Notes: generated by a model not told the origin, from the sequence alone. A stretch of DNA of 64,000 nucleotides from Solirubrobacteraceae bacterium (GCA_036489875.1 DASXEZ010000160.1:17106-81105); one strand, 5' to 3'. Positions 19,083 to 54,457 are shown, counted from the stretch's first letter. Numbers and translations are program-made.

Positions 19083-20758
19083 TCGTCGCGCACCTCTCCA
19101 ACCACGGCGGCCTCATCGCGGACTTCGAATGCGTGGCCGCTGTGCTTGACCTCGACGTTCGCTCGTTTCGCTACGACGACGGCTACAACATCGGACCGGA
19201 GCGTGCGGAGCGCTCGTGGGAGCGATGGCGTGAGCGCCTTGCGAGCGCCGATGTGGTGCTCGTGTCCGACACGGCACCACTTGCGCGCATCGTCCTCGAG
19301 CGGCTTGAAGAATTCGCGGGTCATGTCGTCCTCTGGGTCTGCAACCGCTTCGACTACAGCGACCAGGCGACCAATGACTGCGGCTTTCCCGACCCCGGCT
19401 ACTACGAGCTGATCCGGCGCTGCGTTGACCATGAGCGCGTACACATTGCTCCCTACTCCGCATTCGAGATCGAGTACGCCCGAGACAAGGGCGTCGAGCT
19501 GGGCGAGCGTCTCATCAAGCCCCTCGGCCGCCGCCGGCCTGAGCCACACCGCGCATCAGCGCGCGGTGGCGTCGACCGCGCCGCGACCGTCTATGTGCCG
19601 CCCTACCACAACGACACGATCTTCATGGACCTGGCCGCTCGCTGCGAAGCGTTGGGGGTGCCCGCCTGGTGCGGGCGCTACAGCCGCCTGGAGGAGGTGA
19701 GTGAGTTCCGGGCGGTCGTACACATCCCCTACGCGTGGTCAACCGTCGCCTTTTTCGAGCGCTTGCAGGCCGCGATCCCGACCTTCATCCCGTCCGCCCG
19801 CCTGCTTCTCGAGATGTGGCGGCAGCCGAACTTCTTCTGGCCAGACTCCCAGCGTCTCGAGGAGCTGCTCACCGAATCAGAGTGGTATGCGCCCGAGCAC
19901 GAGGGCCTGCTCGTCCAATTCGACTCCTTCGAGGAGCTCGGCGAGAAGCTCCACGAGCTCGACCTCGAGCCCGTGTGCGAGCGGCTACGGGAGTTCGGGG
20001 AGCGGCACGCGATCCGAACCTCCGTCGCCTGGAGCGCGCTCTTCGACGAGATCGAGCACGATTCCGTCCGCCGCCTGCGTCCCTACAAGGAGCTCCTCGA
20101 GCGCCACACCGAGGTCGATGGCGATCAGCCGTCGCGGTTTGCCAGCTTCAGCTTCGCCTTCGAACACGTGCAGCAGACGCGGGCACGGACCGTCGTCGAG
20201 CTCGGCACCACCCGCAGCTACGTCCACGGCGGGCTTGCGGGCTGTAACGACGACGACCCGATCCACTGGCGTCCTGATGCTCCCGAACGCTGGGACTGGG
20301 GTGCCGGAGCCTTCACCCTGCTCGCGGCTCTCTGCCTCCCCGACTGCGAGATCCACACCGTCGACACCGCCTCGAGCCACATCGAGCGCGCCAAGGTGAT
20401 GACGGCCGCGCACGCGCGGCGCATTCGCTACCACGTCTGCGACTCGGTCGATTTCCTGCGCTCCTGGGGCCCGGGCACATTGGATCTCGTGTATCTCGAC
20501 ACCGGCGACATGTGGCCGATCGAGCCAACCGCTCGTCACCAGCTCGCGGAGGCGCAGGTGCTGTGCGAGGAGCGCTTGCTCTCGGGCCAGGGCCTGCTGT
20601 TGATCGACGACATCGGCAACCCGACCCCGGGGCGGTTTGGCGACGACTCCCCCCACGGCAAGGCCAAGTACTCGCTGCCCTATCTGCTGGAGCAGGGCTT
20701 CGAGGTCGTCTTCGAAGGGTTTCAGTTGGCGCTCAGGCCGCCGGCACGCCGAACCTGA
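19079..20758 (+). CDS. two-domain protein: unknown N-terminal (GT-like?) domain + C-terminal class I SAM-dependent methyltransferase-like domain
   Basis: GTGA overlap upstream. The C-terminal part TVVELGTTRSY...DLVYLDTGDMW...GLLLIDD fits an O-methyltransferase (Methyltransf_24-like) layout. The N-terminal domain is unassigned. Confidence 0.75.
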   Translation: MIVAHLSNHGGLIADFECVAAVLDLDVRSFRYDDGYNIGPERAERSWERWRERLASADVVLVSDTAPLARIVLERLEEFAGHVVLWVCNRFDYSDQATNDCGFPDPGYYELIRRCVDHERVHIAPYSAFEIEYARDKGVELGERLIKPLGRRRPEPHRASARGGVDRAATVYVPPYHNDTIFMDLAARCEALGVPAWCGRYSRLEEVSEFRAVVHIPYAWSTVAFFERLQAAIPTFIPSARLLLEMWRQPNFFWPDSQRLEELLTESEWYAPEHEGLLVQFDSFEELGEKLHELDLEPVCERLREFGERHAIRTSVAWSALFDEIEHDSVRRLRPYKELLERHTEVDGDQPSRFASFSFAFEHVQQTRARTVVELGTTRSYVHGGLAGCNDDDPIHWRPDAPERWDWGAGAFTLLAALCLPDCEIHTVDTASSHIERAKVMTAAHARRIRYHVCDSVDFLRSWGPGTLDLVYLDTGDMWPIEPTARHQLAEAQVLCEERLLSGQGLLLIDDIGNPTPGRFGDDSPHGKAKYSLPYLLEQGFEVVFEGFQLALRPPARRT

Positions 20759-23246
20759 ACGGCACTCGCCGCCAGTTGCGCCAGCGCGGGTACCAATCCG
20801 GCAGAGGGGAGGGGACCGCCGGTCGCTCCCCGCGGCGCTCGGGCGGCTGCTCCTCCCACGCCAGCAGCGCATTCGCCCAGGCCGGAGCCGGGTCGGGCGC
20901 CTCCGTGGGTCGCAGCGCCGGCATGACAAGGATCTCCGCCGTCGGTTCACTCCTCTGTCCGCCGGGGCCGATCGCACGCAGTGTGATCCTCGAGGTGCCG
21001 CTCGGATCAAAGCGCCGCAACACCCCCACGGTCTCGGAGCCGTCGTAAGAAGCGACGACCTCGCCGTTGAGCTCGAGCTCGTAGCGCTCCACGACTCCGG
21101 GCGGCGGCGTCCAGCTCAGTTGCAGCGCAGCGCCCTCGAAATGTCCGCTCAGACTGCTCGCGGCGTCCAGATCGTCCGAGACGATCGGAGGCGGCGTGTC
21201 GAAGGCCAGCGGCGGGGCGCCCGAACCGACGTGGGCGATCGGTTCGAGCAGGGCCAGCGCCTGCGCGAGCGGGACGATTGCAAGTCCGGCGGCGACGTCG
21301 CTGACGCCGAAGCTGAGCACGAGCGTTTCGTCGCGCAGCGCCATGCCGGCGCAAAACTCGACGCGGTCGGCGATGAAGCTGAAGGGCCGCGACATCGCCA
21401 TGATCGAGTGGTCGGGCCCCAGCGCCAGCAGCCGATGCAGGTAGCGGGCGGCGGGCCCGCTGCGGTCCACTTCATGCACGACGAAGAGGTGGCCGCCGTC
21501 GTAGGGCACGCCTTGGGATCCGCCCCGCAGGTGATGTGCCTCGGCGGGTGCGTCGTGCCGTGCGATCATCTCGGTGCCGCCGCTGTGCGGATCGCAACGA
21601 AGCAGCGCGGTGGGGGCGCAGCTGTAGAGGACGTGCGGGACACCAGCCAGGGAGAGCGGCATCCAGTTCTTCTCGTGGCGCTCACCGTGCGGCCCTGCGA
21701 GCGCGGTGACCTCGACGATTTCGGCGCCCTCGAGCCTGAGCAACGCCACCTCGCGCCGCTCATCGGGGTTGAGATCACAGACCGTCGCCGTCGCATACCA
21801 GGTGTTGTCGCACTGGAACAGCCGGCAGTCCTCGTAGCCCTCGACCCGGGTCGGGTAGCGCTTCGGCTGCTCGGTGCGATCGACCAGGGGCGCCATCGTC
21901 CTCACCGCCAGATCGGAATCCAGCTCGATCAGGTAATTGATGGTGCGGAGCACCCCGTCCTCGTCGAAGATGTCACCGCCGATCTCGTAGTTGGCGGTTC
22001 GCACGATCATTCGAAAGCCGTCCCCGTCGCTGGCGATGCTCGGGTTGAAGCAGGGCCATGCCGGCTCGACATCGAGCTTGATCTCGCCGATCCTCGTCCC
22101 GGGCGCCAGCGCCGTCAGCGTCGCCGCAGGCGAGCGCTCACCCACGACTGCGCCCGCCTCGGGTCCGAGGGCCGACACCCGCACCGCCTCGGGCGCGCGC
22201 TGGAGATCGCCGAGCTGGCGGCCGGCCGCCTGGCGCACCTCGTCGGGCGTATCAGTTCGCGTGACGAGCTCGTGCAAATCATCACGCGCCTCGTCCTCCC
22301 AACCGAGCCCCGCAGCCGCGAGGCCCCTCTCCAGGCGCAGGCCCCACCCATACACCTCGCGGTGAACGAACAGCACATCGGCGGGATAGGGAATCTCCAT
22401 GCCGCGGCTCGCGAACATGTGTGCCATCGAGAAGTCCCCGCGACGGCGGTGTATACGGGCCAGCTCGTAGAGCGGCTCGGCACGGGCCGGCCGCCGCTCC
22501 CACGCCTCCAGAAGGATCGATGTCGCCGCTCCAACATCCTCTTGAGCCACCAGCATGCCCTGCACCAGGTTGGCGTAGAAGACCTCCTCGTCCCATCCGC
22601 CGAGCTCGACGCGCTGACGGTAGGCATCGATCGCCGCCTCGCGCTCCCCGAGCTCCTTCAGCGTCTGCGCCAGGTAGAAGGTCGCGCGTGGGGCGTTCGG
22701 GCTCCGTGCGAGATCGCGTCGCAGCAGGCCCAGGTCGCGGATCAGCTTCTCGGGCCGCGCCGAGCCGTCCGCGTGATGCTCGACCGTCAGCACCTCGAGC
22801 TCGCCCTGCTCGAACCTGCCGTCGGTTGCGAGGTGCTCGTGCGTCGACCCGGAGTACCACCAGCGACGGTCTCCGCGTACCAGGCGGAGCACCCCATAGT
22901 CGAGCGTGCCAGTGTCGCGAATCAGGTACGCGTCGAGCGTCAGGTCCGGCAGCGGCCCGCTCAGGCGCACGGTCATGTCCGCGTCGAGCGCCAGTAGATA
23001 GTCGGCCTTGCCGTGAGCACGTTCCATCAGCTCGGTGCGGTTGTGGCCGAAGTCGATCCACGTCAGCTCGTGCAGTTCGCCCGGGAGATGGGACAAGGAT
23101 GAGCGCACAAGCTCCTGGGTGCCGTCCGTCGACCCCGTGTCACAGATGATCCAGCTGTCTATCAACCCCCGCACCGACGCGAGGCAGCGGTCGAGAATTG
23201 CTGCCTCGTTACGAACGATCATGCACAGGCAGATCGACTTCTTCAT
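20733..23246 (-). CDS. 837-aa GT2-family glycosyltransferase with TPR region and C-terminal beta-rich domains
   Basis: N-terminus reads SICLCMIVRNEAAILDRCLASV...WIICDTGSTDGT...LALDADM (GT2). A TPR-like segment follows (ATFYLAQTLKELGEREAAIDAYRQRVELGG...PLYELARIHRRRGDF). Then comes a ~330-aa domain with FNPSI and HEKNWMP motifs, and a final FN3-like ~90 aa. The domains after GT2/TPR are tentative. Confidence 0.85.
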   Translation of the reverse strand: MKKSICLCMIVRNEAAILDRCLASVRGLIDSWIICDTGSTDGTQELVRSSLSHLPGELHELTWIDFGHNRTELMERAHGKADYLLALDADMTVRLSGPLPDLTLDAYLIRDTGTLDYGVLRLVRGDRRWWYSGSTHEHLATDGRFEQGELEVLTVEHHADGSARPEKLIRDLGLLRRDLARSPNAPRATFYLAQTLKELGEREAAIDAYRQRVELGGWDEEVFYANLVQGMLVAQEDVGAATSILLEAWERRPARAEPLYELARIHRRRGDFSMAHMFASRGMEIPYPADVLFVHREVYGWGLRLERGLAAAGLGWEDEARDDLHELVTRTDTPDEVRQAAGRQLGDLQRAPEAVRVSALGPEAGAVVGERSPAATLTALAPGTRIGEIKLDVEPAWPCFNPSIASDGDGFRMIVRTANYEIGGDIFDEDGVLRTINYLIELDSDLAVRTMAPLVDRTEQPKRYPTRVEGYEDCRLFQCDNTWYATATVCDLNPDERREVALLRLEGAEIVEVTALAGPHGERHEKNWMPLSLAGVPHVLYSCAPTALLRCDPHSGGTEMIARHDAPAEAHHLRGGSQGVPYDGGHLFVVHEVDRSGPAARYLHRLLALGPDHSIMAMSRPFSFIADRVEFCAGMALRDETLVLSFGVSDVAAGLAIVPLAQALALLEPIAHVGSGAPPLAFDTPPPIVSDDLDAASSLSGHFEGAALQLSWTPPPGVVERYELELNGEVVASYDGSETVGVLRRFDPSGTSRITLRAIGPGGQRSEPTAEILVMPALRPTEAPDPAPAWANALLAWEEQPPERRGERPAVPSPLPDWYPRWRNWRRVPFRFGVPAA

Positions 23247-25405: not shown

Positions 25406-25478
25406 GCCGACGTAGCTCAGCTGGTAGAGCACTTCACTCGTAATGAAGGGGTCCCCGGTTCGAATCCGGGCGTCGGCT
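25406..25478 (+). tRNA. tRNA-Thr (anticodon CGU)
   Basis: GCCGACG/CGTCGGC acceptor stem, D-arm TAGCTCAGCTGGTAGAGCA, anticodon stem-loop CTTCA-CTCGTAA-TGAAG (CGT), T-arm CCCGGTTCGAATCCGGG. 73 nt, CCA not encoded. Confidence 0.9.
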
Positions 25479-37022: not shown

Positions 37023-37740
37023 CTAGGAACTCGGTGTAGAGGCTGGGATAGCCGTCACCAGGGCCGTTCTGGCTGTCGTCGCCCCCCGGCCCCAATCCTC
37101 TGCAGCACGCTCATGCCGCTGATCACAGTGCCGAAGGGGGTGTAGTCCGGAGCCAGCGTGGTGTTCTGCCAGGTGAAGAAGAACTGGCTGCCGTTGGTGT
37201 TCGGTCCGGCATTGGCCATGGCGAGCGTGCCGGCCGGGTAGGTGGCCCCGGTGAGGGTCTCGTCGTTGAATTCGTAGCCGGGACCGCCCGATCCGGTGCC
37301 GGTCGGGTCGCCGCACTGGAGCACGAAGATCCCTTGGGTGGTGAGCCGGTGGCAGTGGGTGAGATTGAAGTAGCCGCGGCTTGCCAGGAAGCGGAACGAA
37401 GTGGTGGTACACGGCGGCGCGGCGGTCAGCATCCGGACAGTGATGATGCCTCGCGTGGTGATGAAGGTGACGTTGAAAGGCTGCCCTCCTGTGTCGCATT
37501 GAACACGGGGATGCCCTTGAAGCTATCCGCGAGGACCGACGCTTGGAAGCCGCACGGGTTGGTGACTGTGGGCGTGGCGGCAGCCGTCCGCGCACGGAGG
37601 CCGGGAGCATTGAGGTAGGGACGGTGCACGGGGCTACTGAGGGCACCGGACGCGCTCGCCCCGGCGACTGTGACCGCAGCGGTCACAGTGGCAGTAGCGA
37701 GCAACCAACGAAAACGGCGTTCACCGAACATGGCGGGCAA
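36994..37740 (-). pseudogene. secreted cyclophilin-type peptidyl-prolyl isomerase, disrupted by two frameshifts (or two assembly errors)
   Basis: The signal-peptide ORF 37426..37740 has to jump frame near 37480-37495 to reach FNVTFITTRGIITVRMLTAAPPCTTTSFRFLASRGYFNLTHCHRL...QCGDPTGTGSGGPGY...LAMANAGPNTNGSQFFF...FGTV (ORF 37055..37432). A second shift at the C6 run (37082-37087) is needed to recover a cyclophilin-like tail ...GDGYPSLYTEF. Confidence 0.6.
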
Positions 37741-37968: not shown

Positions 37969-40569
37969 TCAGGAGGGTGCGCCGCTTCCGCCAGCCCCCC
38001 CGGGGGTACCCGCCGGCCCAGCGCCGGCACCGGCCGCCCCGCCCTGTCCCCCGGTCCCGCCTGCGCCGCCGGCGCCGCCGGCGCCGCCCGCGCCGCCGTC
38101 GCCGTTCGCGCCTGGGGATCCGGCCGCGCTGCCAGCTGTTCCGCCGTCGCCGGCGGCTCCGCCGTTGCCGCCGGCTCCGCCGTTCTGTCCGCCTGCGCCG
38201 CCCGCGCCACCGTCGCCACCCGCACCTGCGTTCCCGCTGATGCTGCCCCCATTCCCGCCGGCGCCTCCGCTGCCCCCGCTGCCACCGGTGCCGCCGGCGC
38301 CGTCAGTCCCGCCCGCGGCGCCGGTGCCGCCGGCGCCGCCGTCGCCACCGTCACCGAAGTTGCCGCCGTTACCACCGTGTCCGCCGCCGCCGCCGTCGGT
38401 CCCGGGTGCGGTTGCTCCGAATCCAGCCCCGCCGTCCCCACCGTTTCCGCCGCCGGGCGCGGGTTGACCGCCGGCGCCGGTGGACCCTCCGGTCCCGCCA
38501 ATGCCGCCGGTACCGGAGGGTCCACCAGCACCGGCGCTGCCGGGCGTCCCGCCGTTGCCGCCATTACCGCCGTTGCCGCCGTCGGGTTTGGCGGCGGTTC
38601 CGGCCAACCCGTTCCCGCCGTTTCCTCCGATACCGGCGGTGCCGCCGTTGCCGCCAGTACCGCCCACACCATTAGCCCCGGCTCCGCCTGAATTGCCGCC
38701 GCTGCCGCCCGTGCCGCCGCTGCCACCCGAGGCGCCGTTGCCCCCGTTGCCGCCGTTGGGGTCAGTGGCGGTTCCACCCAACCCGTCGCCGCCGTTCCCG
38801 CCCTCACCGGCGCCGCCGCCGGCGCCGCCGCCGCCGCCGGCACCGGCAGTCATACCGGCTCCGGCCGCGCCACCCTCACCGCCGCTGCCGCCGTTGCCGC
38901 CTGCGCCCCCGGGGGCACCGTCGCCACTGGCGCCGTTGTCGACTCCGGCCTCTCCCGTGCCGCCGTCGCCGCCGTTCGCCCCGGTCCCGCCTGCGCCACC
39001 ACGGCCGCCCGTTGCGCCGCGACCGCCAGTTCCGCCAGTGCCGCCGTCGCCGCCAGCGGCGCCGGCGGTCGCTGCTGGGTAGCCGGCGCCCCCGGTGCCG
39101 CCAGTCCCGCCGGTGGCGGCCTGACCAGCGACACCGGTCGTCCCAGCGCTCGCACCAGCCCCGCCAGCTGCTCCACCCATGCCGCCGCTGCCCGGCGTCC
39201 CAGGATCGCCGCCCGTGCCGCCCTCGCCGCCATTGGGGGTATCAGCTGTCCCTGCCCCACCGGTGCCGCCGCGCCCGCCCACACCGGCCGTACCGCCAGC
39301 GCCGCCGCTACCGCCGTTGCCAGCAGCGCCGCCGTTGACGCCGTGGATCGCCACGCCGCCGCTGCCGCCGGCGCCGCCGTGCCCGCCCATCTCGCCCGCG
39401 CCGCCGGTGCCGCCGGTGCCCGCTCCGCTCGTTCCGGCGACGCCGGTGGCGCCGTTGCCGCCGGCACCCCCGGCCCCCCCGTTGGCCCCCGGACCGCCGT
39501 TCCCACCGGTGCCACCAGCGCCGGCGGCGCCACCGAGCGTGGTTGATGAAGACCCGGCGCCGCCATTGCCGCCCACCCCGCCGGCGGAGGCGTTTCCAGT
39601 TTGTCCTGCGGTGCCGCCCGCTCCGGCGAGGCCACCCGCACCGCTGCTTCCGGGGTTCCCGCCGTTCCCGCCGTTGCCGCCCGTGACGTCGTCGCCGGTT
39701 CCTAGCGCACCGGCTGCTCCGTTCCCGCCGGCTCCGGCATTTCCGCCGGCACCGCCATTAGCGCCCGCGCCGCCGGCGCCGCCGGCGCCGCCGTTACCGC
39801 CGGCGCCGCCGGATTGGCTGGCTGTGCCTCCTGCACCACCAGCGCCGCCGTTACCGCCGCGGCCACCGTTCGCCCCGGTGCCGCCAGGGCCGCCAGGGCC
39901 GCCGGCGCCGCCGGCGCCACCGGAACCAGTGCCGGCCGCGCCGTTTCCGCCGGCCCCGCCGCTGCCGCCGGCAGCAGTGTTCACCACACCACGCAATCCG
40001 AGCACGAGGAGATGCGTTCCGGGATTCCCGCCTGCGCCGCCGCTCGATCCTGACTGTCCCGGTGTGCCGCCGGCAGCGCCGCTGCCGCCGGCGCCTCCGT
40101 TGCCGGCCTGGGATCCAAACTCAGCGTTCCCCCCGTTCCCGCCGGCGGTCCCGGCGTCGGCCGGGTTGTTGCTGCTCCACCCGTTCCCCCCGTTTCCGCC
40201 GCGGCCGGTGAGTAGTCCGCCGGTGCCGCCGTTGCCCCCGGGCACACCAGGAATGGTGCTTGACCAGCCGTTCCCGCCGTTGCCGGCGATCAGGCCACCG
40301 CTCTGACCATTCGGATGCTGAGCGGTGCCGTTGGCCCCGTTGCAAACGAGGCCACAGATGCTCGTCGTCGATGGCTGTGCCAACGCAACGAATCCCGTGG
40401 CGTTCGCGGGAGACGCACTCACCGCACAAGGCACCGCCCAAAGCAACACGCCGCCAAGGACGACGAATGCCACACGGAACGGTCGCCGACCACGCAGGCG
40501 ACCTCCACGTCGGGCCTTGCTCACCGAATCAAATCGAAAATCATCAGCGAACCTGCGATCTCGTGACAT
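37969..40569 (-). CDS. 866-aa secreted Gly-Gly-X repeat protein (PGRS-like composition, no PE domain)
   Basis: Uninterrupted 2.6-kb ORF. ATG 40569 is preceded by aggaaggctgagg. The signal peptide is RPFRVAFVVLGGVLLWAVPCAVSASPANA. The remainder is almost entirely GGN/GGA/GGT/GGS triplets (GGNGGNGGTGG, GGAGGNGGAGG, GLIAGNGGNGWSS). The opposite-strand Pro-rich ORFs are broken into pieces. Confidence 0.75.
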   Translation of the reverse strand: MSRDRRFADDFRFDSVSKARRGGRLRGRRPFRVAFVVLGGVLLWAVPCAVSASPANATGFVALAQPSTTSICGLVCNGANGTAQHPNGQSGGLIAGNGGNGWSSTIPGVPGGNGGTGGLLTGRGGNGGNGWSSNNPADAGTAGGNGGNAEFGSQAGNGGAGGSGAAGGTPGQSGSSGGAGGNPGTHLLVLGLRGVVNTAAGGSGGAGGNGAAGTGSGGAGGAGGPGGPGGTGANGGRGGNGGAGGAGGTASQSGGAGGNGGAGGAGGAGANGGAGGNAGAGGNGAAGALGTGDDVTGGNGGNGGNPGSSGAGGLAGAGGTAGQTGNASAGGVGGNGGAGSSSTTLGGAAGAGGTGGNGGPGANGGAGGAGGNGATGVAGTSGAGTGGTGGAGEMGGHGGAGGSGGVAIHGVNGGAAGNGGSGGAGGTAGVGGRGGTGGAGTADTPNGGEGGTGGDPGTPGSGGMGGAAGGAGASAGTTGVAGQAATGGTGGTGGAGYPAATAGAAGGDGGTGGTGGRGATGGRGGAGGTGANGGDGGTGEAGVDNGASGDGAPGGAGGNGGSGGEGGAAGAGMTAGAGGGGGAGGGAGEGGNGGDGLGGTATDPNGGNGGNGASGGSGGTGGSGGNSGGAGANGVGGTGGNGGTAGIGGNGGNGLAGTAAKPDGGNGGNGGNGGTPGSAGAGGPSGTGGIGGTGGSTGAGGQPAPGGGNGGDGGAGFGATAPGTDGGGGGHGGNGGNFGDGGDGGAGGTGAAGGTDGAGGTGGSGGSGGAGGNGGSISGNAGAGGDGGAGGAGGQNGGAGGNGGAAGDGGTAGSAAGSPGANGDGGAGGAGGAGGAGGTGGQGGAAGAGAGPAGTPGGAGGSGAPS
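37990..40330 (-). repeat. GGX-codon low-complexity array inside the 866-aa gene
   Basis: About 2.3 kb of ggc-ggc-nnn type periodicity (read as gcc-gcc on the + strand). This is degenerate triplet periodicity rather than long exact repeats. Confidence 0.8.
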
Positions 40570-40776
40570 CCTCAGCCTTCCTGCCTCAGACGCCGGCAAG
40601 CGCCCGGAACTCACGGAAGGGCAACCTAAACGAACGCCCGAGGCACTGCAACGCTCGCGGAAGTGCCGCGGTAGCGAGTGGGGCTCGGTCCTGCGCCCGA
40701 CATCGGGTCTGTTAACCGACGCGACGGGCGCTCCATCGCGATCCCGCGCCAGGTCGGCTCGAGTGCGTAAGCGCCC

Positions 40777-40912: not shown

Positions 40913-42406
40913 TCAGCAGGGACTCGGGGCGCACTTGTCCTTCTGGCATGACGACGCGCACTGCTGACCGCAGCCCGGAGACTGGTGCCCGCAGCCCGGT
41001 GACTGCTGTCCGCATCCGTTGGTGTCGCACTGCTGCTGGCAGTCGCAGTTGCACGACGGCTCGCAGCTGTTGCCGCACTGCTGCTGGCAGTTGCACTGGC
41101 ATGTCGGCGGTGGCGGCGGTGGCGATGGCGGGTTGTTGCACGGGTAGTTGCCGCCGCTGTTGCTGTTGCCGCCGTTGCTGTTGCCGCCGCTAGCGGTGTT
41201 CGAGGCCGTGCCTCCGTTGCCGCCGTTGGCGTTGACCGTGCCGCCATTGGCAGACGACGGGCCGCTAGAGACCGCGGTGTTGCCACCGCGCGTGTTCTGC
41301 CCGACCGCGTCACCGTTGAGGAACACGAGGTTGCCGCTGTTGGACTGGCCGCCGTTGGCGGTGTTGCCGTTTCCTCCGCCGCCACCGTTGGCGTTGTTGT
41401 CGCCCTGCGTGATGCTTTGCGGTCCTTGGTTGTTGGTGGAGTCTGCGGCGTTGTTGGTGGCGGTGCCGCCGTTGCCGCCGTTGGCGTTGACGGTGCCGCC
41501 GTTGGCGTTTGAGGATCCGCTCGTCACGACGGTGTCGCCACCGCTCGTGCCGTGCTTGTGGTGGTGCTTGTGCTGCGAGTACGTCGACTCCGAGTCCTGG
41601 CAGCCGCAATTCTGCTGGTGACCCTTGTCGCCGGTCGATACCGCGTCACCGTTCAGGAAGACGGCGTTGCCGCTGTTGGACTGGCCGCCGTTGGCGGTGT
41701 TGCCGTTTCCTCCGCCGCCACCGTTGGCGTTGTTGTCGCCCTGCGTGGCGCCTTGCTGTCCTTGGTTGTTGTCCTCGTTCTTGCAGCCGCAACCGGGCGA
41801 GCCACTTCCACCGCTGTCGCCTGCGGTGTTCGAGGCGGTGCCGCCGTTGCCGCCGTTGGCGTTGACGGTGCCGCCGTTGGCGTTTGAGGATCCGCTCGAG
41901 ACGGCGGTGCTGCCGCCCTTCGCGTTCCCGCCCAGACTGACTGAGTCGCCGTTCAGCGCGACAATGTTGCCGCTGTTGGACTGGCCGCCGTTGGCGGTGT
42001 TGCCGTTTCCTCCGCCGCCACCGTTGGCGTTGTTGTCGCCCTGCGTGCCGCCATCGACTCCGGTCGGGCTGGTCGCGCCGTTCGTGGCCGTGCCGCCGTT
42101 GCCGCCGTTGTCATTGGTGGTCCCGCCATTGGCTGAGGAGGATCCGCTCGAGACGGTGGTGTTGCCACCGCTGGCGTTCCCGCCCAGGCCGACCGCGTCG
42201 CCGTTGAGGACGGCGATGTTGCCGCTGTTGGACTGACCGCCGTTGGCGGTGTTGCCGTTACCGCCGCCGCCGCCGTTGGCGGTGTTGGCGCCCTGCGTCA
42301 AGGCTCCCGCATTCCCAGACACGGGCGGCTGGGCCAGTGCTGAGGGTGCGCAAGCTCCCGCGATTGCGAGCACGCCTAGCGTGATCGCCGCGAAGTGTCG
42401 TCTCAT
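40913..42406 (-). CDS. 497-aa secreted Asn/Gly-rich four-repeat protein with His-rich insert and Cys-rich C-terminal tail
   Basis: ATG start and signal peptide MRRHFAAITLGVLAIAGACAPSALA/QPP. Four repeats follow: TQGDNNANGGGGGNGNTANGGQSNSGN.V.LNGD...VSSGSSNANGGTVNANGGNGGTA. Linkers contain GCGC, CGC and HKHHHKH. The last 77 aa contain 17 Cys (CQCNCQQQCGNSCEPSCNCDCQQQC...). Confidence 0.8.
   Translation of the reverse strand: MRRHFAAITLGVLAIAGACAPSALAQPPVSGNAGALTQGANTANGGGGGNGNTANGGQSNSGNIAVLNGDAVGLGGNASGGNTTVSSGSSSANGGTTNDNGGNGGTATNGATSPTGVDGGTQGDNNANGGGGGNGNTANGGQSNSGNIVALNGDSVSLGGNAKGGSTAVSSGSSNANGGTVNANGGNGGTASNTAGDSGGSGSPGCGCKNEDNNQGQQGATQGDNNANGGGGGNGNTANGGQSNSGNAVFLNGDAVSTGDKGHQQNCGCQDSESTYSQHKHHHKHGTSGGDTVVTSGSSNANGGTVNANGGNGGTATNNAADSTNNQGPQSITQGDNNANGGGGGNGNTANGGQSNSGNLVFLNGDAVGQNTRGGNTAVSSGPSSANGGTVNANGGNGGTASNTASGGNSNGGNSNSGGNYPCNNPPSPPPPPPTCQCNCQQQCGNSCEPSCNCDCQQQCDTNGCGQQSPGCGHQSPGCGQQCASSCQKDKCAPSPC
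41331..42298 (-). repeat. intragenic tandem repeats with 100%-identical DNA cores
   Basis: The 80-bp core ttgccgctgttggactggccgccgttggcggtgttgccgtttcctccgccgccaccgttggcgttgttgtcgccctgcgt occurs identically at 41331-41410, 41667-41746 and 41967-42046, with a diverged copy at 42219-42298. A second 65-bp block is identical at 41459-41523 and 41834-41898. Confidence 0.9.
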
Positions 42407-51796: not shown

Positions 51797-54457
51797 ATGC
51801 TGAGACGCGCAGTGGCAGTGGCTTTGGGCCTCGCGGTGATCGGCTGCGGCTTGCTGCTTGGGGCCAACATGGCGACCGCTACTGGAACAGGCGCGATTTC
51901 AGGCGTGCTCACGAATCCTTCTGGCGCGGCGATTGCAGACGCGACCGTCTTGGTGTACGAAAACGGCACGATCGCGGCTTCCGCCTCCACGTCGTCGAAC
52001 GGGAGCTACACCGCCGGGTCGCTCGTCGCGGGTTCCTATACGGTCAGCTTCAGACCGCCGCCCGTCCCAGCGAGTGGCCCGGATACGGGGAATTATCTGC
52101 CGCAGAACTACAGCGGCCGATCACCGAACGCCGGCGCGGACCCCGTCACAGTGCAGACCGGCGTCACGACTCCCGATGTTGACGGCGTGCTGCAGCCGGG
52201 CGGAGCGATCTCCGGAGTTGTCGAAGATAGCTCTGGCAACCCCGTGGTCGGTATCGACGTGGGGGCCTCGGACAGCGATGGCGTCTTCGCCGGGTCATCA
52301 GCGACCACCGCGGCGGACGGCAGCTATTCGATCGACAGGCTTCCGGCCGGCGAATACAGCGTCTCTTTTCTAACCGAGGGGCAGAGCTCGTATCAGCCCG
52401 ACTACACCGGCGGTAGTCCCACGCTCGCCGGCGCCTACGGTGTCGCCGTCACCGCCGGCTCAACGACCTCGGGTGTGGATGCCCATCTCGTCGTAGGGGG
52501 TGTGCTCACCGGCACCGTGACGGACACCTCTGCCGCGCCAGTAGAGGACGTTGGTGTAAGCGTTCTCGACAGCACCGGCAACGACGTCGCCAACGCCTCG
52601 ACAGGGACCGACGGCGTGTACTCGGTCACTGGCCTCGCCACCGGCTCCTACAGGGTTGAGTTCCTGCCGGAGCCGGAGTTCCCGTTCTCCCCTGTTCCCA
52701 ATTACCTCGCGTCCTACTTCGGCGGCTCGGCCACACTTTCCGGCGCGGCCACTGTGGAGGTCGGCGCGGGAAGCACCACTTCCGGCGTCGATGGGCGGCT
52801 CGCCGCCGGGGCGGTGATCGGTGGGACGGTCACGGACCCGGCTGATAAGCCCCTCGATGGCGTCGGTGTGAGTCTGTACGGCAGCGACGGGACAGAGGTC
52901 CAGCTTGCCACCACTGGTAGCGACGGCACCTATCAGATCGCGGGCTTGCCGAGCGGGAGCTACAAGATCGATTTCGACACCGAGGGCGGCTTTACGACGC
53001 TGAACGACGTCGGGGAGTTCTACGGCGGCAGCTCGCTTGCCAGCGCCACGGCTATCCATCTGACTTCGGGCGACCCGCCAGCGGTCATCAACGCGCAGCT
53101 CGCCGCCGGCGCGACGATCTCCGGGACGGTCACGGACTCGCTCGGCGATCCGCTCAGTGGCGTGCCAGTCGAGGCCTTTGACGTCGACGGCAATGTCGTG
53201 ACTGGCGCGACGACCGCCCACTTCAACGGCGACTACGAGATCGAGGGTCTACCCCAGGGCACCTACCGCATCGGCTTCGACCAGGGACTCGGGTGCTGCA
53301 GCCTGGCTGGCAACTACTCGCCGCAGTTCAGCGGCGACAAATCGACCCTCGCGGCCGCAGAGACGGTGACCGTGGGACCTGCGGGCAGCGCGAGCGGCGT
53401 TGATGCCGCTCTCACTCCCGGAGGGCGAATCTCCGGCCGGGTCACCGATGCCGGCGGCTCGACCCTTGGGGACATCAACGTCGAGGCCATCGACGCCGCA
53501 GGCAACGTCGTCGCCGCGACGCAGACCTTCCCGGATGGCACGTATTGGCTCTCCGGGCTCGGCAGCGGTAGCTACAGGATCCAGTACGCCGGTGCCTTCG
53601 CACTGGTCGGTCCGGTGGTCAATACGGAGTACTTCGGAGGTAGCGCCACCCTGGCCGGTGCGGCCGGAGTCTCCGTCGTCGCCGGAGCGACGACTGCGGG
53701 TGTCGATATGGAGCTCTCGCGCACGGCCGGCGGCATCGCAGGCGTCGTGACCAACGGGACCGACGGCTCCCTCGCGGGCGCCTCGGTGACCGTGTATGAG
53801 CTGTCTGGCAGCACCGCCGTGGCAACCTCGGTCACCGCCGCCGACGGCAGCTTCGCCCTCGCGGGTCTGGGCCCCGGCTTCTACCGAGTGGGATTCGCGC
53901 TCACGGGATACGCGTCCGCGTATTACTCCGGCGCTACCTCGCTGTCTGCGGCGCAACCCATCTATGTTGCGTCGGGGGCTAGCGCGACCGGCATCGATGC
54001 AGCGCTTCCAACGAGCGGCGCCAGCTCTCCGCCGGCCCCGCGAGCTCCGGCACCGCAGGCTTACGCACAACCCTCTCCGGGGCCGACGCCATCGCAGGGC
54101 TCAGCCGGCTCGCAGCCGCCGGGAGGCTCCGTTGTCGAGTTCGTCGTGCTCCCCTCAGTACGGAAGCTGAAGCTCTCGTCTCGCGGTTTCAAGATTCCCG
54201 TGCAATGTCTGGAGAAAGCACCGTGTACCGGGGAGGTCACGCTATCGGTCACCCATCGCAAAGCCCGGGTGAAGCTGGCTAGCGCTTCCGTGAAGATCGC
54301 TCCCGGCGGCGAGCACTACGCGATCGTAAAGCTCAACGCTTACGGAGCAAAGCTGTTCCGCTCGGCAAGGCACCGCCTACGCGTGACGGTCACGGTCTCG
54401 GTCCTCGGGCCAGGTACCGCGACGCAGACCGTCCGCGAAACCGTTCTGATCGTGTAG
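51797..54457 (+). CDS. 886-aa secreted protein with seven CarboxypepD_reg-like (Cna-B/SdrD-like) repeats
   Basis: Signal peptide MLRRAVAVALGLAVIGCGLLLGANMATA. There are seven copies of G.ISG.VTD..G.PL.GV.V...D..G..V..A.T..DG.Y.I.GL..GSY.V.F with YFGGS.TL..A linkers. A Pro-rich spacer and a ~110-aa C-terminal domain follow. Confidence 0.85.
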   Translation: MLRRAVAVALGLAVIGCGLLLGANMATATGTGAISGVLTNPSGAAIADATVLVYENGTIAASASTSSNGSYTAGSLVAGSYTVSFRPPPVPASGPDTGNYLPQNYSGRSPNAGADPVTVQTGVTTPDVDGVLQPGGAISGVVEDSSGNPVVGIDVGASDSDGVFAGSSATTAADGSYSIDRLPAGEYSVSFLTEGQSSYQPDYTGGSPTLAGAYGVAVTAGSTTSGVDAHLVVGGVLTGTVTDTSAAPVEDVGVSVLDSTGNDVANASTGTDGVYSVTGLATGSYRVEFLPEPEFPFSPVPNYLASYFGGSATLSGAATVEVGAGSTTSGVDGRLAAGAVIGGTVTDPADKPLDGVGVSLYGSDGTEVQLATTGSDGTYQIAGLPSGSYKIDFDTEGGFTTLNDVGEFYGGSSLASATAIHLTSGDPPAVINAQLAAGATISGTVTDSLGDPLSGVPVEAFDVDGNVVTGATTAHFNGDYEIEGLPQGTYRIGFDQGLGCCSLAGNYSPQFSGDKSTLAAAETVTVGPAGSASGVDAALTPGGRISGRVTDAGGSTLGDINVEAIDAAGNVVAATQTFPDGTYWLSGLGSGSYRIQYAGAFALVGPVVNTEYFGGSATLAGAAGVSVVAGATTAGVDMELSRTAGGIAGVVTNGTDGSLAGASVTVYELSGSTAVATSVTAADGSFALAGLGPGFYRVGFALTGYASAYYSGATSLSAAQPIYVASGASATGIDAALPTSGASSPPAPRAPAPQAYAQPSPGPTPSQGSAGSQPPGGSVVEFVVLPSVRKLKLSSRGFKIPVQCLEKAPCTGEVTLSVTHRKARVKLASASVKIAPGGEHYAIVKLNAYGAKLFRSARHRLRVTVTVSVLGPGTATQTVRETVLIV

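What the first reader, a model, noticed from the sequence alone, without database searches (positions are those of the whole stretch)
37969..40569. PGRS-like Gly-Gly-X protein carrying a Sec-type signal peptide instead of a PE domain
Seen: after the signal peptide (…LLWAVPCAVSASPANA) the protein is triplet-periodic GGX for about 800 residues. Strings such as GGNGGNGGTGG, GGAGGNGGAGGAGG, GLIAGNGGNGWSS and GGLLTGRGGNGGNGWSS recur.

Established knowledge: this composition (GGA/GGN triplets, 'GGLL.G.GG.GG' punctuations) is the hallmark of the PGRS domain of mycobacterial PE_PGRS proteins. That family is considered restricted to mycobacteria, and its N-terminal PE domain routes it through ESX-5. 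Gly-triplet arrays have been modelled or solved as polyglycine-II helix bundles (snow-flea antifreeze protein, PGRS models).

Inference: this is either an independent invention or a PE-less relative of PGRS using Sec export, which would bear on the origin and function of PGRS domains. The N-terminal 30 codons also use unusually A/T-rich codons (ttc gct gat gat ttt cga ttt gat) compared with the rest.
Basis: partly seen in the sequence, partly recalled or inferred. Interest (0 to 1): 0.75.

Follow-up and report, generated by a model that had tools for sequence, protein, structure and literature searches.

The report
Secreted PGRS glycine-repeat protein outside mycobacteria
A soil bacterium only distantly related to the tuberculosis bacillus encodes a true relative of the mycobacterial "PGRS" glycine-repeat surface domain, led by an ordinary export signal instead of the PE domain, so this domain is tied neither to mycobacteria nor to their special ESX secretion system.

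Summary
A minus-strand ORF (37969..40569, 866 aa) encodes a protein that is 46% Gly. Its local Gly-Gly-X periodicity is far above shuffled controls, and it starts with an n/h/c signal peptide ending in ANA|T.

It is a homologue of PGRS, not an independent invention:
- Pfam PGRS (PF21526) scores above its gathering threshold on residues 76-131.
- The segment CGLVCNGANGTAQHPNGQSGGLIAGNGGNGWSS aligns with the GRPLIGxGAxGT "cap" of real PE_PGRS proteins (hhalign probability 99.5%).
- With a 64-sequence alignment, AlphaFold2 builds residues ~68-147 at pLDDT 75-95 with no helix or strand. The best PDB match is a springtail antifreeze bundle of polyproline-II helices.

There is no PE domain and no ESX gene in the window. 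The contig belongs to a Solirubrobacteraceae MAG (class Thermoleophilia). Two truncated orthologues with the same layout exist, and NCBI already names one "PGRS repeat-containing protein".

PE-less PGRS proteins are common in environmental mycobacteria, and the target's cap falls within their diversity. Horizontal transfer is therefore the simplest origin.

Residues 200-866 lack the hydrophobic edge typical of mycobacterial PGRS, which fits a host not expected to have a mycomembrane. Whether export is Sec or Tat is unresolved, and the function is only inferred.

The parts
37969..40569 (-). Full coding sequence, 866 aa: signal peptide + PGRS cap + about 735 aa of Gly-Gly-X array. No C-terminal domain and no sorting motif.
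   Evidence: This is the longest ORF across the 80% GC block. Its Gly codon usage (GGC/GGG/GGT/GGA 59/15/15/12%) matches other genes of the window, while the antisense ORFs do not. Differences from the orthologues are mostly synonymous: 9 synonymous vs 2 amino-acid-changing (L017), 12 vs 8 (L011).
40576..40581 (-). Shine-Dalgarno-like GGAAGG, 6 nt upstream of the ATG.
   Evidence: Read directly from the sequence.
40399..40569 (-). Signal peptide, residues 1-57. Arg-rich n-region with an RR pair (GRRPFRV), h-region VAFVVLGGVLLWAVPCAV, c-region SASPANA, predicted cleavage ANA|T.
   Evidence: Assigned by inspection. Mean Kyte-Doolittle hydrophobicity of the h-region is 2.44. The same layout is seen in orthologues L011/P0059 and L017. 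No Tat-signal HMM hit in Pfam or NCBIfam.
40177..40356 (-). PGRS 'cap', residues 72-131: C72-G-L-V-C76-NGANGT...GGLIAGNGGNGWSS...GGLLTGRGGNGGNGW. It corresponds to the GRPLI motif and the first hairpins of PE_PGRS.
   Evidence: Pfam PF21526 scores 37.1 bits (threshold 27) on residues 76-131. phmmer hits to PE_PGRS52 and to PE-less PGRS proteins reach E 1e-8 to 3e-16. hhalign gives 99.5% probability against an alignment of GRPLI caps. The AF2 model has pLDDT 75-95 here.
37972..40176 (-). Gly-Gly-X array, residues 132-866 (X = A > N > T > S > D). It is acidic, and after residue 200 it has no hydrophobic doublets.
   Evidence: Periodicity and run statistics. Hydrophobic content compared with PE_PGRS and CMD-PGRS (carboxymuconolactone-decarboxylase fusion) proteins. 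Mature protein pI 4.08. The DNA repeats are degenerate (60-70% matches, periods 9/18/27). Residues up to 300 were modelled at pLDDT 50-75. The fold of the rest is inferred.

Best explanation
The gene encodes an exported PGRS-domain protein of a Solirubrobacteraceae bacterium (class Thermoleophilia).

Proposed sequence of events:
1. A cleavable N-terminal signal peptide takes the chain across the cytoplasmic membrane. Sec is more likely because the h-region is very hydrophobic, but Tat is not excluded.
2. After cleavage at ANA57|T58, the conserved cap (C72-x3-C76-NGANGT..., probably disulphide-bonded outside the cell) nucleates folding.
3. The Gly-Gly-X triplets fold into short antiparallel polyglycine-II (PGII) helices of 2-4 triplets, stacked as a flat two-layer sandwich.
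4. The result is a long, acidic, hydrophilic sheet of about 63 kDa outside the cell.

Because it lacks the aromatic/hydrophobic 'straight edge' of mycobacterial PGRS, it probably does not sit in a lipid layer. It is more likely released or loosely associated with the wall, acting as a surface or matrix protein.

In evolutionary terms it belongs to the PE-less 'CxxxC-cap' branch of PGRS, which is common in environmental Mycobacteriaceae, and it was most likely acquired by horizontal transfer.

Shown: the coding frame, homology to PGRS, absence of PE, the signal-peptide layout, and a PGII-type model for the N-terminal ~90 residues of the mature protein. Inferred: the export route, the disulphide, the fold of residues 300-866, localisation, function and the direction of transfer.
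For: Coding frame:
- Gly and Ala codon usage match the genome.
- Mostly synonymous differences from orthologues.

Homology:
- Pfam PGRS above its gathering score.
- In the two single-sequence searches, nearly all significant hits fall on residues about 50-170 and are PGRS proteins. These include M. tuberculosis complex PE_PGRS52 (E 1.6e-8 against 5.8 billion sequences). The top hits in an exhaustive HMMER search of 1.84 billion representatives reach E 3e-16.
- hhalign 99.5%, 60% identity over 57 columns against GRPLI caps.

Fold:
- AF2 with a 64-sequence alignment gives pTM 0.62, pLDDT 75-95 for model residues 11-90, and no helix or strand.
- Best Foldseek PDB match is 7jjv_A, the nine-helix polyproline-II bundle antifreeze protein (E 7e-4, probability 1.0). 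Snow-flea antifreeze protein follows only weakly (3bog E 0.63, 2pne E 1.1).

No PE or ESX:
-, and the Pfam content of the whole window.

Host:
- Neighbouring proteins are records of a 'Solirubrobacteraceae bacterium' MAG. The same sequence lies on a 365-kb metagenome contig.
- Orthologue P0059 is from a second Solirubrobacteraceae MAG.
- The window's MsrA, MmpL-like protein and cyclophilin are only distant from the M. tuberculosis proteins. By contrast, RpoC of a truly mycobacterial locus scores 2579 bits.

Orthologues with the same signal + cap layout.

Missing hydrophobic edge: no hydrophobic doublets and 0.5 aromatic residues per 100 aa in residues 200-866, against 4.1-5.4 doublets and 2.5-4.4 aromatics per 100 aa in PE_PGRS and CMD-PGRS proteins.

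Cap identity to the mycobacterial 'AIELASV' PE-less family is 0.68, equal to that family's internal mean.
Against: - There is no expression or protein evidence.
- The signal peptide was judged by eye; no SignalP or TatP was available, and a conserved RR pair leaves Tat open.
- Only residues 58-300 were modelled, and confidence falls to 50-70 beyond about residue 150. The single-sequence model of the whole protein was uninformative (pLDDT 26).
- Pfam matches only one stretch. For residues 200-866, similarity to PGRS rests on composition and periodicity.
- The host assignment rests on MAG labels plus indirect checks; the window holds no universal marker gene.
- The scan of 185,579 species genomes used only exact peptides from the query. 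It found no relative outside mycobacteria, and not the source genome either.
- The cap is too short (46 aa) to root a tree, so the direction of transfer is not established.
Confidence: 0.75

Rival explanations
1. Ancient module. Sec-exported PGRS is an old Actinomycetota domain inherited vertically in Thermoleophilia and Mycobacteriales. PE_PGRS then arose later, when a PE/ESX-5 targeting domain was fused in front of it.
For: PGRS caps occur behind at least four kinds of N-terminus: PE, signal peptide or membrane anchor, a 'DWINS' domain (my label for an N-terminal region with a DWINS-like motif), and CMD-fusion proteins. The target's Gly codon usage is native-like. Three Solirubrobacteraceae-type orthologues have diverged from each other.
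Against: All other named carriers are Mycobacteriaceae. The target's cap is as close to one mycobacterial family as that family's members are to each other, which looks nested rather than basal. No relative turned up in other actinobacterial genomes, though that scan was narrow.
Confidence: 0.15
2. Binning error. The contig is really from an environmental mycobacterium, so this is just one more PE-less mycobacterial PGRS protein.
For: The closest cap relatives are mycobacterial. The window's GC (about 68%) would fit either group. The window has no universal marker gene to check.
Against: The sequence lies on a 365-kb contig. The window's own records and a cap orthologue come from two differently labelled Solirubrobacteraceae MAGs. 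MsrA, MmpL-like protein and cyclophilin are far from the M. tuberculosis proteins: 115, 197 and 65 bits. No PE, PPE, ESX or Mce genes occur in 64 kb. The 90%-identity clusters of the neighbouring proteins contain only metagenome or MAG members.
Confidence: 0.06
3. Convergence. This is an unrelated low-complexity Gly-rich protein that only resembles PGRS in composition.
For: Beyond residue 200 there is no alignable, non-repetitive similarity, and Pfam matches a single stretch.
Against: The cap shares Cys, Asn, Ala, Thr, Pro and Trp/Ser positions with PGRS proteins. E-values reach 3e-16 after HMMER's composition correction, and hhalign gives 99.5%.
Confidence: 0.03
4. Different function. The protein is a secreted ice-binding, antifreeze or water-structuring protein, like the springtail bundles of polyproline-II helices, rather than a PGRS-style surface 'sail'.
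For: The best structural match is springtail antifreeze protein 7jjv. The X positions are mostly Ala, Asn, Thr and Ser, and the surface is hydrophilic with no lipid-binding edge. The protein is exported.
Against: The fold match follows largely from the composition, with TM-scores only 0.32/0.58. To my knowledge, the mycobacterial homologues have no known link to ice. The protein is about ten times larger than the antifreeze proteins. The sampled habitat could not be traced.
Confidence: 0.05
5. Non-coding shadow. The real gene is a Pro-rich ORF on the opposite strand, or the region is not expressed at all.
For: Long antisense ORFs (375-386 aa) exist. JGI's gene caller split the ORF into 535 aa plus an out-of-frame 72-aa ORF.
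Against: The Gly frame is the only one open across the whole block. Its codon usage matches the genome, while the antisense ORFs have aberrant Gly/Ala codon usage. Substitutions against orthologues are mostly synonymous in this frame. The N-terminus has a signal peptide and a conserved domain.
Confidence: 0.02

Closest known systems
PE_PGRS proteins of Mycobacterium (e.g. PE_PGRS52, PE_PGRS33)
   Same: Homologous PGRS domain, with Pfam PF21526 above threshold. The cap segment xGxGAxGTxxxPNGxxGGLxxGNGGNG(W/F/Y) aligns at 60% identity over 57 columns. Both have GGA/GGN triplets with phase-breaking indels, an acidic surface, and a predicted sandwich of polyglycine-II (PGII) helices (PMC9436101).
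   Different: No PE domain and no helical linker. The literal GRPLIG is replaced by C-G-L-V-C. A signal peptide replaces ESX-5 targeting. No ESX genes are nearby. The hydrophobic/aromatic edge is missing after residue 200. The host is not a mycobacterium and, as a member of Thermoleophilia, is not expected to have a mycomembrane (my knowledge).
PE-less 'PGRS repeat-containing proteins' of environmental Mycobacteriaceae
   Same: These comprise the CMD-PGRS fusions of Mycolicibacterium, the 'DWINS' type of Mycolicibacter, and the 'AIELASV..WWL..CGLVCNG' type found next to rpoC. They share the CxxxC form of the cap (66-80% identity over 46 aa) and have no PE. Many have an N-terminal hydrophobic signal or anchor followed by 400-1600 aa of Gly array.
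   Different: Their N-terminal regions are unrelated to the target's. Most keep frequent hydrophobic doublets. The CMD type carries C-terminal enzyme domains. The hosts are mycobacteria wherever this could be tested.
Solirubrobacteraceae orthologues (NCBI MGH2873175.1 = P0059; metagenome contig Ga0182030_10353914 = L017)
   Same: Same layout: Arg-rich n-region with an RR pair, hydrophobic h-region, AxA site, short linker, then CGLICNGANGT... (78-93% identity in the cap).
   Different: Both are cut off by contig ends after 27-37 residues of the domain, so the window holds the only full-length copy seen here. The flanking genes are not syntenic.
Springtail and snow-flea antifreeze proteins (PDB 7jjv, 3bog, 2pne)
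   Same: The best solved-structure match for the model is a two-layer bundle of antiparallel polyproline-II-type helices built from Gly-rich triplets. My knowledge: these proteins are also stabilised by disulphides.
   Different: No sequence homology was shown. They are 80-125 aa against about 800 aa here. Only 7jjv matches significantly; the snow-flea entries match weakly (E 0.63 and 1.1). Ice binding is untested.

Membership tests
PE_PGRS (PE family, PGRS subfamily) | N-terminal PE domain (Pfam PF00934, about 110 aa) | tested here: not met
   Pfam scan of the 866-aa protein at E <= 1 gives only PGRS. The upstream frame has a stop 75 codons above the ATG and nothing PE-like.
PE_PGRS (PE family, PGRS subfamily) | GRPLI linker motif at the start of the PGRS domain | tested here: inconclusive
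   The literal GRPLIG is absent. The homologous position reads I-C-G-L-V-C (R replaced by C, G replaced by C). The segment after it aligns to GRPLI caps with hhalign probability 99.5%.
PE_PGRS (PE family, PGRS subfamily) | Export through ESX-5 (type VII secretion) | not testable with these tools
   Pfam content of the 64-kb window shows no EccC/FtsK, WXG100, PPE or mycosin genes. The rest of the genome was not available.
PE_PGRS (PE family, PGRS subfamily) | Mycobacterial host | tested here: not met
   Neighbouring proteins are records of a Solirubrobacteraceae MAG. Three window proteins are distant from their M. tuberculosis counterparts. Caveat: no universal marker gene lies in the window.
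PGRS domain (Pfam PF21526, 'PGRS repeat-containing protein') | Profile match above the curated threshold | tested here: met
   37.1 bits against a gathering score of 27, residues 76-131, E 4.3e-9. NCBIfam has no model that hits.
PGRS domain (Pfam PF21526, 'PGRS repeat-containing protein') | Gly-Gly-X triplet array in short runs separated by turns | tested here: met
   Lag-3 autocorrelation z = 14. Of 40 GGX runs, 34 are 2-4 triplets long. Coverage is 384/776 residues against 68 +/- 19 in shuffles.
PGRS domain (Pfam PF21526, 'PGRS repeat-containing protein') | Predicted polyglycine-II (PGII) sandwich fold | tested here: met
   Met for residues about 68-147 (pLDDT 75-95, no helix or strand, Foldseek top hit 7jjv). 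Residues 150-300 are low confidence, and 300-866 were not modelled.
PGRS domain (Pfam PF21526, 'PGRS repeat-containing protein') | Regular hydrophobic/aromatic 'straight edge' (GG-hydrophobic-hydrophobic-x-G-x-GG turns) proposed to embed in the mycomembrane (PMC9436101) | tested here: not met
   Two such turns occur in residues 72-200, then none. Residues 200-866 have 0 hydrophobic doublets and 0.5 aromatics per 100 aa. The PE_PGRS and CMD-PGRS comparators have 4.1-5.4 doublets and 2.5-4.4 aromatics per 100 aa.
Sec-type cleavable signal peptide | Positive n-region, hydrophobic h-region, AxA cleavage site | tested here: met
   Judged by inspection. Residues 1-57; h-region mean hydrophobicity 2.44; ANA|T site. 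The layout is conserved in two orthologues. No dedicated predictor was available.
Tat (twin-arginine) signal peptide | S/T-R-R-x-F-L-K motif at the n/h boundary with a weakly hydrophobic h-region | tested here: inconclusive
   An RR pair is present in all three orthologues (GRRPFRV, ARRVLRL, TRRSGWR). However, the motif match is partial, the h-regions are strongly hydrophobic (2.3-2.9), and no Tat-signal HMM hit was found.
Collagen-like repeat proteins | G-X-Y triplets rich in Pro | tested here: not met
   The unit is G-G-X, with Pro only 3.5%. The only PDB sequence 'hit' is collagen at E 0.67.

The most novel reading that the evidence does not exclude
PGRS is not a mycobacterial invention. 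On this reading it is an older, Sec-exported polyglycine-II surface module of soil Actinomycetota that works without a mycomembrane. PE_PGRS would then be a late mycobacterial derivative, made by placing a PE/ESX-5 targeting domain in front of it and adding a lipid-binding hydrophobic edge.
Probability: 0.15. Interest if true: 0.75.

Novelty: new variant of a known kind. Interest (0 to 1): 0.5.

Why it matters
Reviews up to 2025 still describe PE/PPE/PGRS as exclusive to Mycobacterium (PMC11939664, PMC6016250). They also explain the PGRS fold as a device for 'sailing' on the mycomembrane after ESX-5 export (PMC9436101).

A full-length PGRS protein with a general export signal contradicts both points: it has no PE domain, no hydrophobic edge, and its host is not expected to have a mycomembrane. 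It shows the domain can be exported and presumably folded without either feature. It also offers a simpler, non-pathogen model for studying the still unsolved PGRS structure.

It separates two features that are confounded in mycobacteria: the Gly-triplet sandwich itself and its lipid-binding edge.

The novelty is limited. Automated annotation already recognises the domain, PE-less PGRS proteins are common in environmental mycobacteria, and horizontal transfer is a sufficient explanation.

Tried and rejected
- Single-sequence AlphaFold2 of the whole protein gave pLDDT 26 and was unusable.
- Foldseek against viral structures found nothing significant.
- PDB sequence search with the target found only a chance collagen hit.
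- Exact look-ups of the protein failed, both as 866 aa and as other start variants. JGI split the gene, and my GTG-start variants were probably translated with Val, so how NCBI annotates this very gene remains unknown.
- The genome-contig scan used only six exact peptides of the query. It returned two mycobacterial loci, not the source genome, so it says little about distribution.
- The metagenome collection searched does not hold the source contigs. I could therefore not compare the target's length between the 79-kb and 365-kb assemblies.
- Word-indexed protein searches were swamped by Gly-rich words: only the 8000 candidates sharing most words were scored.
- Taxonomy of metagenome locus L060 could not be settled.
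- No paper could be found for the sample accessions or for PGRS outside mycobacteria.
- RTX-like calcium motifs: only 4 GGxGx(D/N)x(hydrophobic)x sites and 3 GGxGxD. This is too few to argue for a beta-roll or for calcium binding.
- Lipoprotein reading rejected: the residues before Cys48 (A-V-P-C) do not fit a lipobox.
- No LPXTG motif or C-terminal anchor.
Full report
**1. What is there**

The 80% GC block at about 38.0-40.3 kb is spanned by one uninterrupted minus-strand ORF. Its stop is at 37969-37971, its ATG at 40569, and it stays open up to a GTG at 40614. A GGAAGG lies 6 nt upstream of the ATG.

The 866-aa product is 46% Gly, 16% Ala, 7% Thr and 6.6% Asn.

The Gly-Gly-X periodicity is real:
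- Gly autocorrelation at lag 3 is 0.52 (z = 14 against shuffles) and stays significant at lags 6, 9 and 12.
- Runs of at least two GGX triplets cover 384 of 776 residues, against 68 +/- 19 in shuffles.
- Of the 40 runs, 34 are 2-4 triplets long.
- Global period-3 power is not raised, because indels keep resetting the phase.

X is A (43), N (34), T (27), S (12), D (7). At DNA level the repeats are old and degenerate, with 60-70% matches at periods 9/18/27.

**2. It is a real gene in this frame**

- Gly codon usage (GGC/GGG/GGT/GGA = 59/15/15/12%) matches the catalase, glycosyltransferase and other genes of the window (58/15/14/14, 60/14/16/10 and so on). The long antisense ORFs have aberrant Gly and Ala codon usage.
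- Against two orthologues, codon differences in the alignable part are mostly synonymous: 9 synonymous vs 2 amino-acid-changing, and 12 vs 8.
- JGI's gene caller split the ORF into a 535-aa piece plus a 72-aa ORF that is out of frame with it. That probably explains why the full-length protein is missing from the protein collections.
- The low GC3 of the first 50 codons (0.54) is confirmed. Reduced GC at the 5' end of genes is common, so this needs no special explanation (my knowledge).

**3. N-terminus**

Residues 1-57 read MSRDRRFADDFRFDSVSKARRGGRLRGRRPFR-VAFVVLGGVLLWAVPCAV-SASPANA|T. That is an Arg-rich n-region, an 18-residue h-region (mean Kyte-Doolittle 2.44) and an AxA site.

There is no PE domain. 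Pfam at E <= 1 reports only PGRS. The upstream frame holds a stop 75 codons above the ATG and nothing PE-like.

An RR pair sits at the n/h boundary here and in both orthologues. The motif fits the Tat consensus only partly, the h-regions are strongly hydrophobic, and no Tat HMM hits. I therefore favour Sec but cannot exclude Tat. There is no lipobox and no C-terminal anchor.

**4. Homology to PGRS**

Pfam PF21526 (PGRS repeats) matches residues 76-131 at 37.1 bits, above its threshold of 27.

In the two single-sequence searches, nearly all significant hits fall on residues about 50-170:
- The word-indexed search of 5.8 billion proteins returned M. tuberculosis complex PE_PGRS52 and other PE-PGRS proteins (E about 1e-8). 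It also returned Mycolicibacter and Mycolicibacterium 'PGRS repeat-containing' proteins.
- The exhaustive HMMER search of 1.84 billion representatives gave 79 hits, the best at E 3e-16.

The shared segment is not low-complexity:
- target: CGLVCNGANGTAQHPNGQSGGLIAGNGGNGWSSTIPGVPGGNGG
- PE_PGRS52: RPLIGDGANGTAENPDGQNGGLLFGNGGNGFTQTTAGVAGGNGG

A profile of the target-type caps against a profile of GRPLI caps gives hhalign probability 99.5% and 60% identity over 57 columns. Independent invention is therefore rejected.

Among all retrieved sequences, the cap comes in three forms:
- GRPLIG, after a PE domain.
- C-G-L-(I/V)-C, always PE-less. The target belongs here; its Cys72/Cys76 replace the Arg and Gly of GRPLIG.
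- (L/I)FIGNG, PE-less and following a signal peptide.

**5. Fold**

The single-sequence AF2 model failed (pLDDT 26).

With a 64-sequence alignment, residues 58-300 gave pTM 0.62. pLDDT was 75-95 for model residues 11-90 and 50-75 beyond, with no helix or strand assigned.

The best solved-structure match is 7jjv_A, a springtail antifreeze protein built from nine polyproline-II helices (E 7e-4, probability 1.0, TM 0.32/0.58). Snow-flea antifreeze protein follows only weakly (3bog E 0.63, 2pne E 1.1).

This agrees with the polyglycine-II (PGII) sandwich proposed for PGRS (PMC9436101). The run length of 2-4 triplets also roughly matches the '3 to 4 triplets per PGII helix' described there. The fold of residues 300-866 is inferred from composition and periodicity only.

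**6. Host and relatives**

Exact look-ups place the neighbouring proteins in NCBI records HEY1778188-HEY1778215 of a 'Solirubrobacteraceae bacterium' MAG. They also lie on JGI metagenome contigs of 79 kb and 365 kb that are identical to the window except for a few single-base differences. Solirubrobacteraceae belong to class Thermoleophilia.

The window contains no universal marker gene. As a proxy I compared window proteins with M. tuberculosis proteins in the PDB:
- MsrA: 115 bits, while the E. coli/mammalian type scores 264 bits.
- MmpL-like protein: 197 bits over about 700 aa.
- Cyclophilin: 65 bits.

By contrast, RpoC on metagenome locus L055 scores 2579 bits against M. tuberculosis RpoC. 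The Pfam content of all 64 kb shows no PE, PPE, ESX or Mce genes.

Two orthologues have the same signal-plus-cap layout:
- P0059 (MGH2873175.1) comes from a second Solirubrobacteraceae MAG. NCBI already names it 'PGRS repeat-containing protein, partial'.
- L017 is a JGI soil metagenome contig.

Both are cut by contig ends just inside the repeat.

**7. PE-less PGRS is common in mycobacteria**

A metagenome scan for CGL[VI]CNGAxG gave 54 loci. They carry 100-1660 aa of Gly array behind signal/anchor N-termini or a 'DWINS'-type domain.

One large family (AIELASV..WWL..CGLVCNG) is mycobacterial by its adjacent rpoC. The CMD-PGRS fusions carry Mycolicibacterium labels.

The target's cap is 0.68 identical on average to the AIELASV family, which equals that family's internal mean. 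It is 0.66 identical to CMD-type caps and 0.55 to GRPLI caps. The Solirubrobacteraceae genes thus look nested within mycobacterial diversity. That favours horizontal transfer from mycobacteria, although 46 residues cannot root a tree.

**8. How it differs from canonical PGRS**

After the first about 130 residues of the domain, the hydrophobic turns disappear. Residues 200-866 have no hydrophobic doublets, 0.5 aromatics and 2.3 L/I/F/W/M/Y per 100 aa. The PE_PGRS and CMD-PGRS comparators have 4.1-5.4 doublets, 2.5-4.4 aromatics and 8.4-14.4 L/I/F/W/M/Y per 100 aa.

The mature protein is acidic (pI 4.08, 26 D+E against 7 K+R after the cap). The 'straight hydrophobic edge' thought to insert into the mycomembrane is therefore missing. 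That fits a host not expected to have a mycomembrane. RTX-like calcium motifs are too few to matter.

**9. Mechanism proposed**

1. Export by Sec (or possibly Tat) and cleavage after Ala57.
2. A cap, probably stabilised by a Cys72-Cys76 disulphide, nucleates stacking of short antiparallel PGII helices into a long, flat, acidic two-layer sheet.
3. The product is released or held loosely on the wall as a surface or matrix protein.

The frame, the homology, the absence of PE and the N-terminal fold model are shown. The export route, the disulphide, the rest of the fold, the localisation and the function are inferred.

**10. Novelty and verdict**

The domain family is known and is recognised automatically. 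PE-less members are numerous in databases. However, I found no paper describing them or any PGRS outside mycobacteria, and reviews still call the family exclusive to mycobacteria.

This is a new variant of a known kind: full length, led by a signal peptide, lacking the hydrophobic edge, and in a Thermoleophilia host. Interest is moderate (0.5). It would rise if a taxonomically labelled survey showed that PGRS is old and widespread in Actinomycetota. It would fall to ordinary if the contig proved to be mycobacterial.

Noticed in passing
window 40913-42406 (-): The adjacent upstream gene encodes a second secreted repeat protein of 497 aa. It has a signal peptide ending ALA|QPP, four repeats of about 100 aa rich in Gly and Asn (..NANGGGGGNGNTANGGQSNSGN..LNGD..), and a Cys-rich tail (CQCNCQQQCGNSCEPSCNCDCQQQC..). 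Neither Pfam nor NCBIfam hits it. With the same start codon, its product is 462 aa on the 79-kb JGI contig but 587 aa on the 365-kb contig, so its length differs between assemblies.
   Followed up: partly
window 37055-37740 (-): The gene just downstream of the target is a secreted cyclophilin broken by two frameshifts relative to intact 240-243-aa homologues. The same split products occur on contigs of three assemblies, so it is a pseudogene or a consistent assembly error.
   Followed up: yes
window 37969-39576 and 39702-39920 (-): The public JGI gene call splits the target ORF into a 535-aa protein without signal peptide or cap, plus a 72-aa ORF that I found to be out of frame with it. The informative N-terminus is therefore absent from the protein databases searched.
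   Followed up: yes
window 20733-23246 (-); loci L013 10100-11878, L055 8425-10125, also L025 and L056: In four loci of the AIELASV-type PE-less PGRS family (mycobacterial where tested, L055), a family-2 glycosyltransferase gene (with TPR in L055) lies just after the PGRS gene. It is 34-38% identical over 340-400 aa to a window gene sitting in a glycosyl-/methyltransferase cluster 15 kb from the target. This may be a functional link, such as glycosylation of the exported protein, or a coincidence.
   Followed up: partly
L055 26-8233: In an environmental mycobacterium (RpoC 2579 bits to M. tuberculosis), a 794-aa PE-less PGRS protein with an N-terminal membrane anchor or signal lies about 2 kb downstream of rpoC. 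An AbiEi-like gene and an endonuclease IV-like gene lie in between.
   Followed up: partly
L060 7719-9068 (also L061, L063): A 449-aa protein with a signal peptide and a PGRS cap (Pfam PGRS 33 bits) lies on a 248-kb metagenome contig. Next to it are thiolase-like, ChsH2-like, P450 and enoyl-CoA hydratase genes. The ChsH2-like protein has no close PDB relative, so the taxon is unknown and this may be another non-mycobacterial carrier.
   Followed up: partly
P0001-P0017 (Mycolicibacterium proteins): A family of 680-1000-aa proteins joins a CxxxC-capped PGRS domain to two C-terminal carboxymuconolactone-decarboxylase/alkylhydroperoxidase-like domains. Several have no obvious signal peptide, so PGRS is combined with quite different partners.
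   Followed up: no
window 25406-25478 (+): A tRNA gene, the only Rfam match in the window.
   Followed up: no
window 51797-54457 (+): An 886-aa secreted protein with seven CarboxypepD_reg / SdrD_B-type beta-sandwich repeats, another large surface-type protein in the neighbourhood.
   Followed up: no
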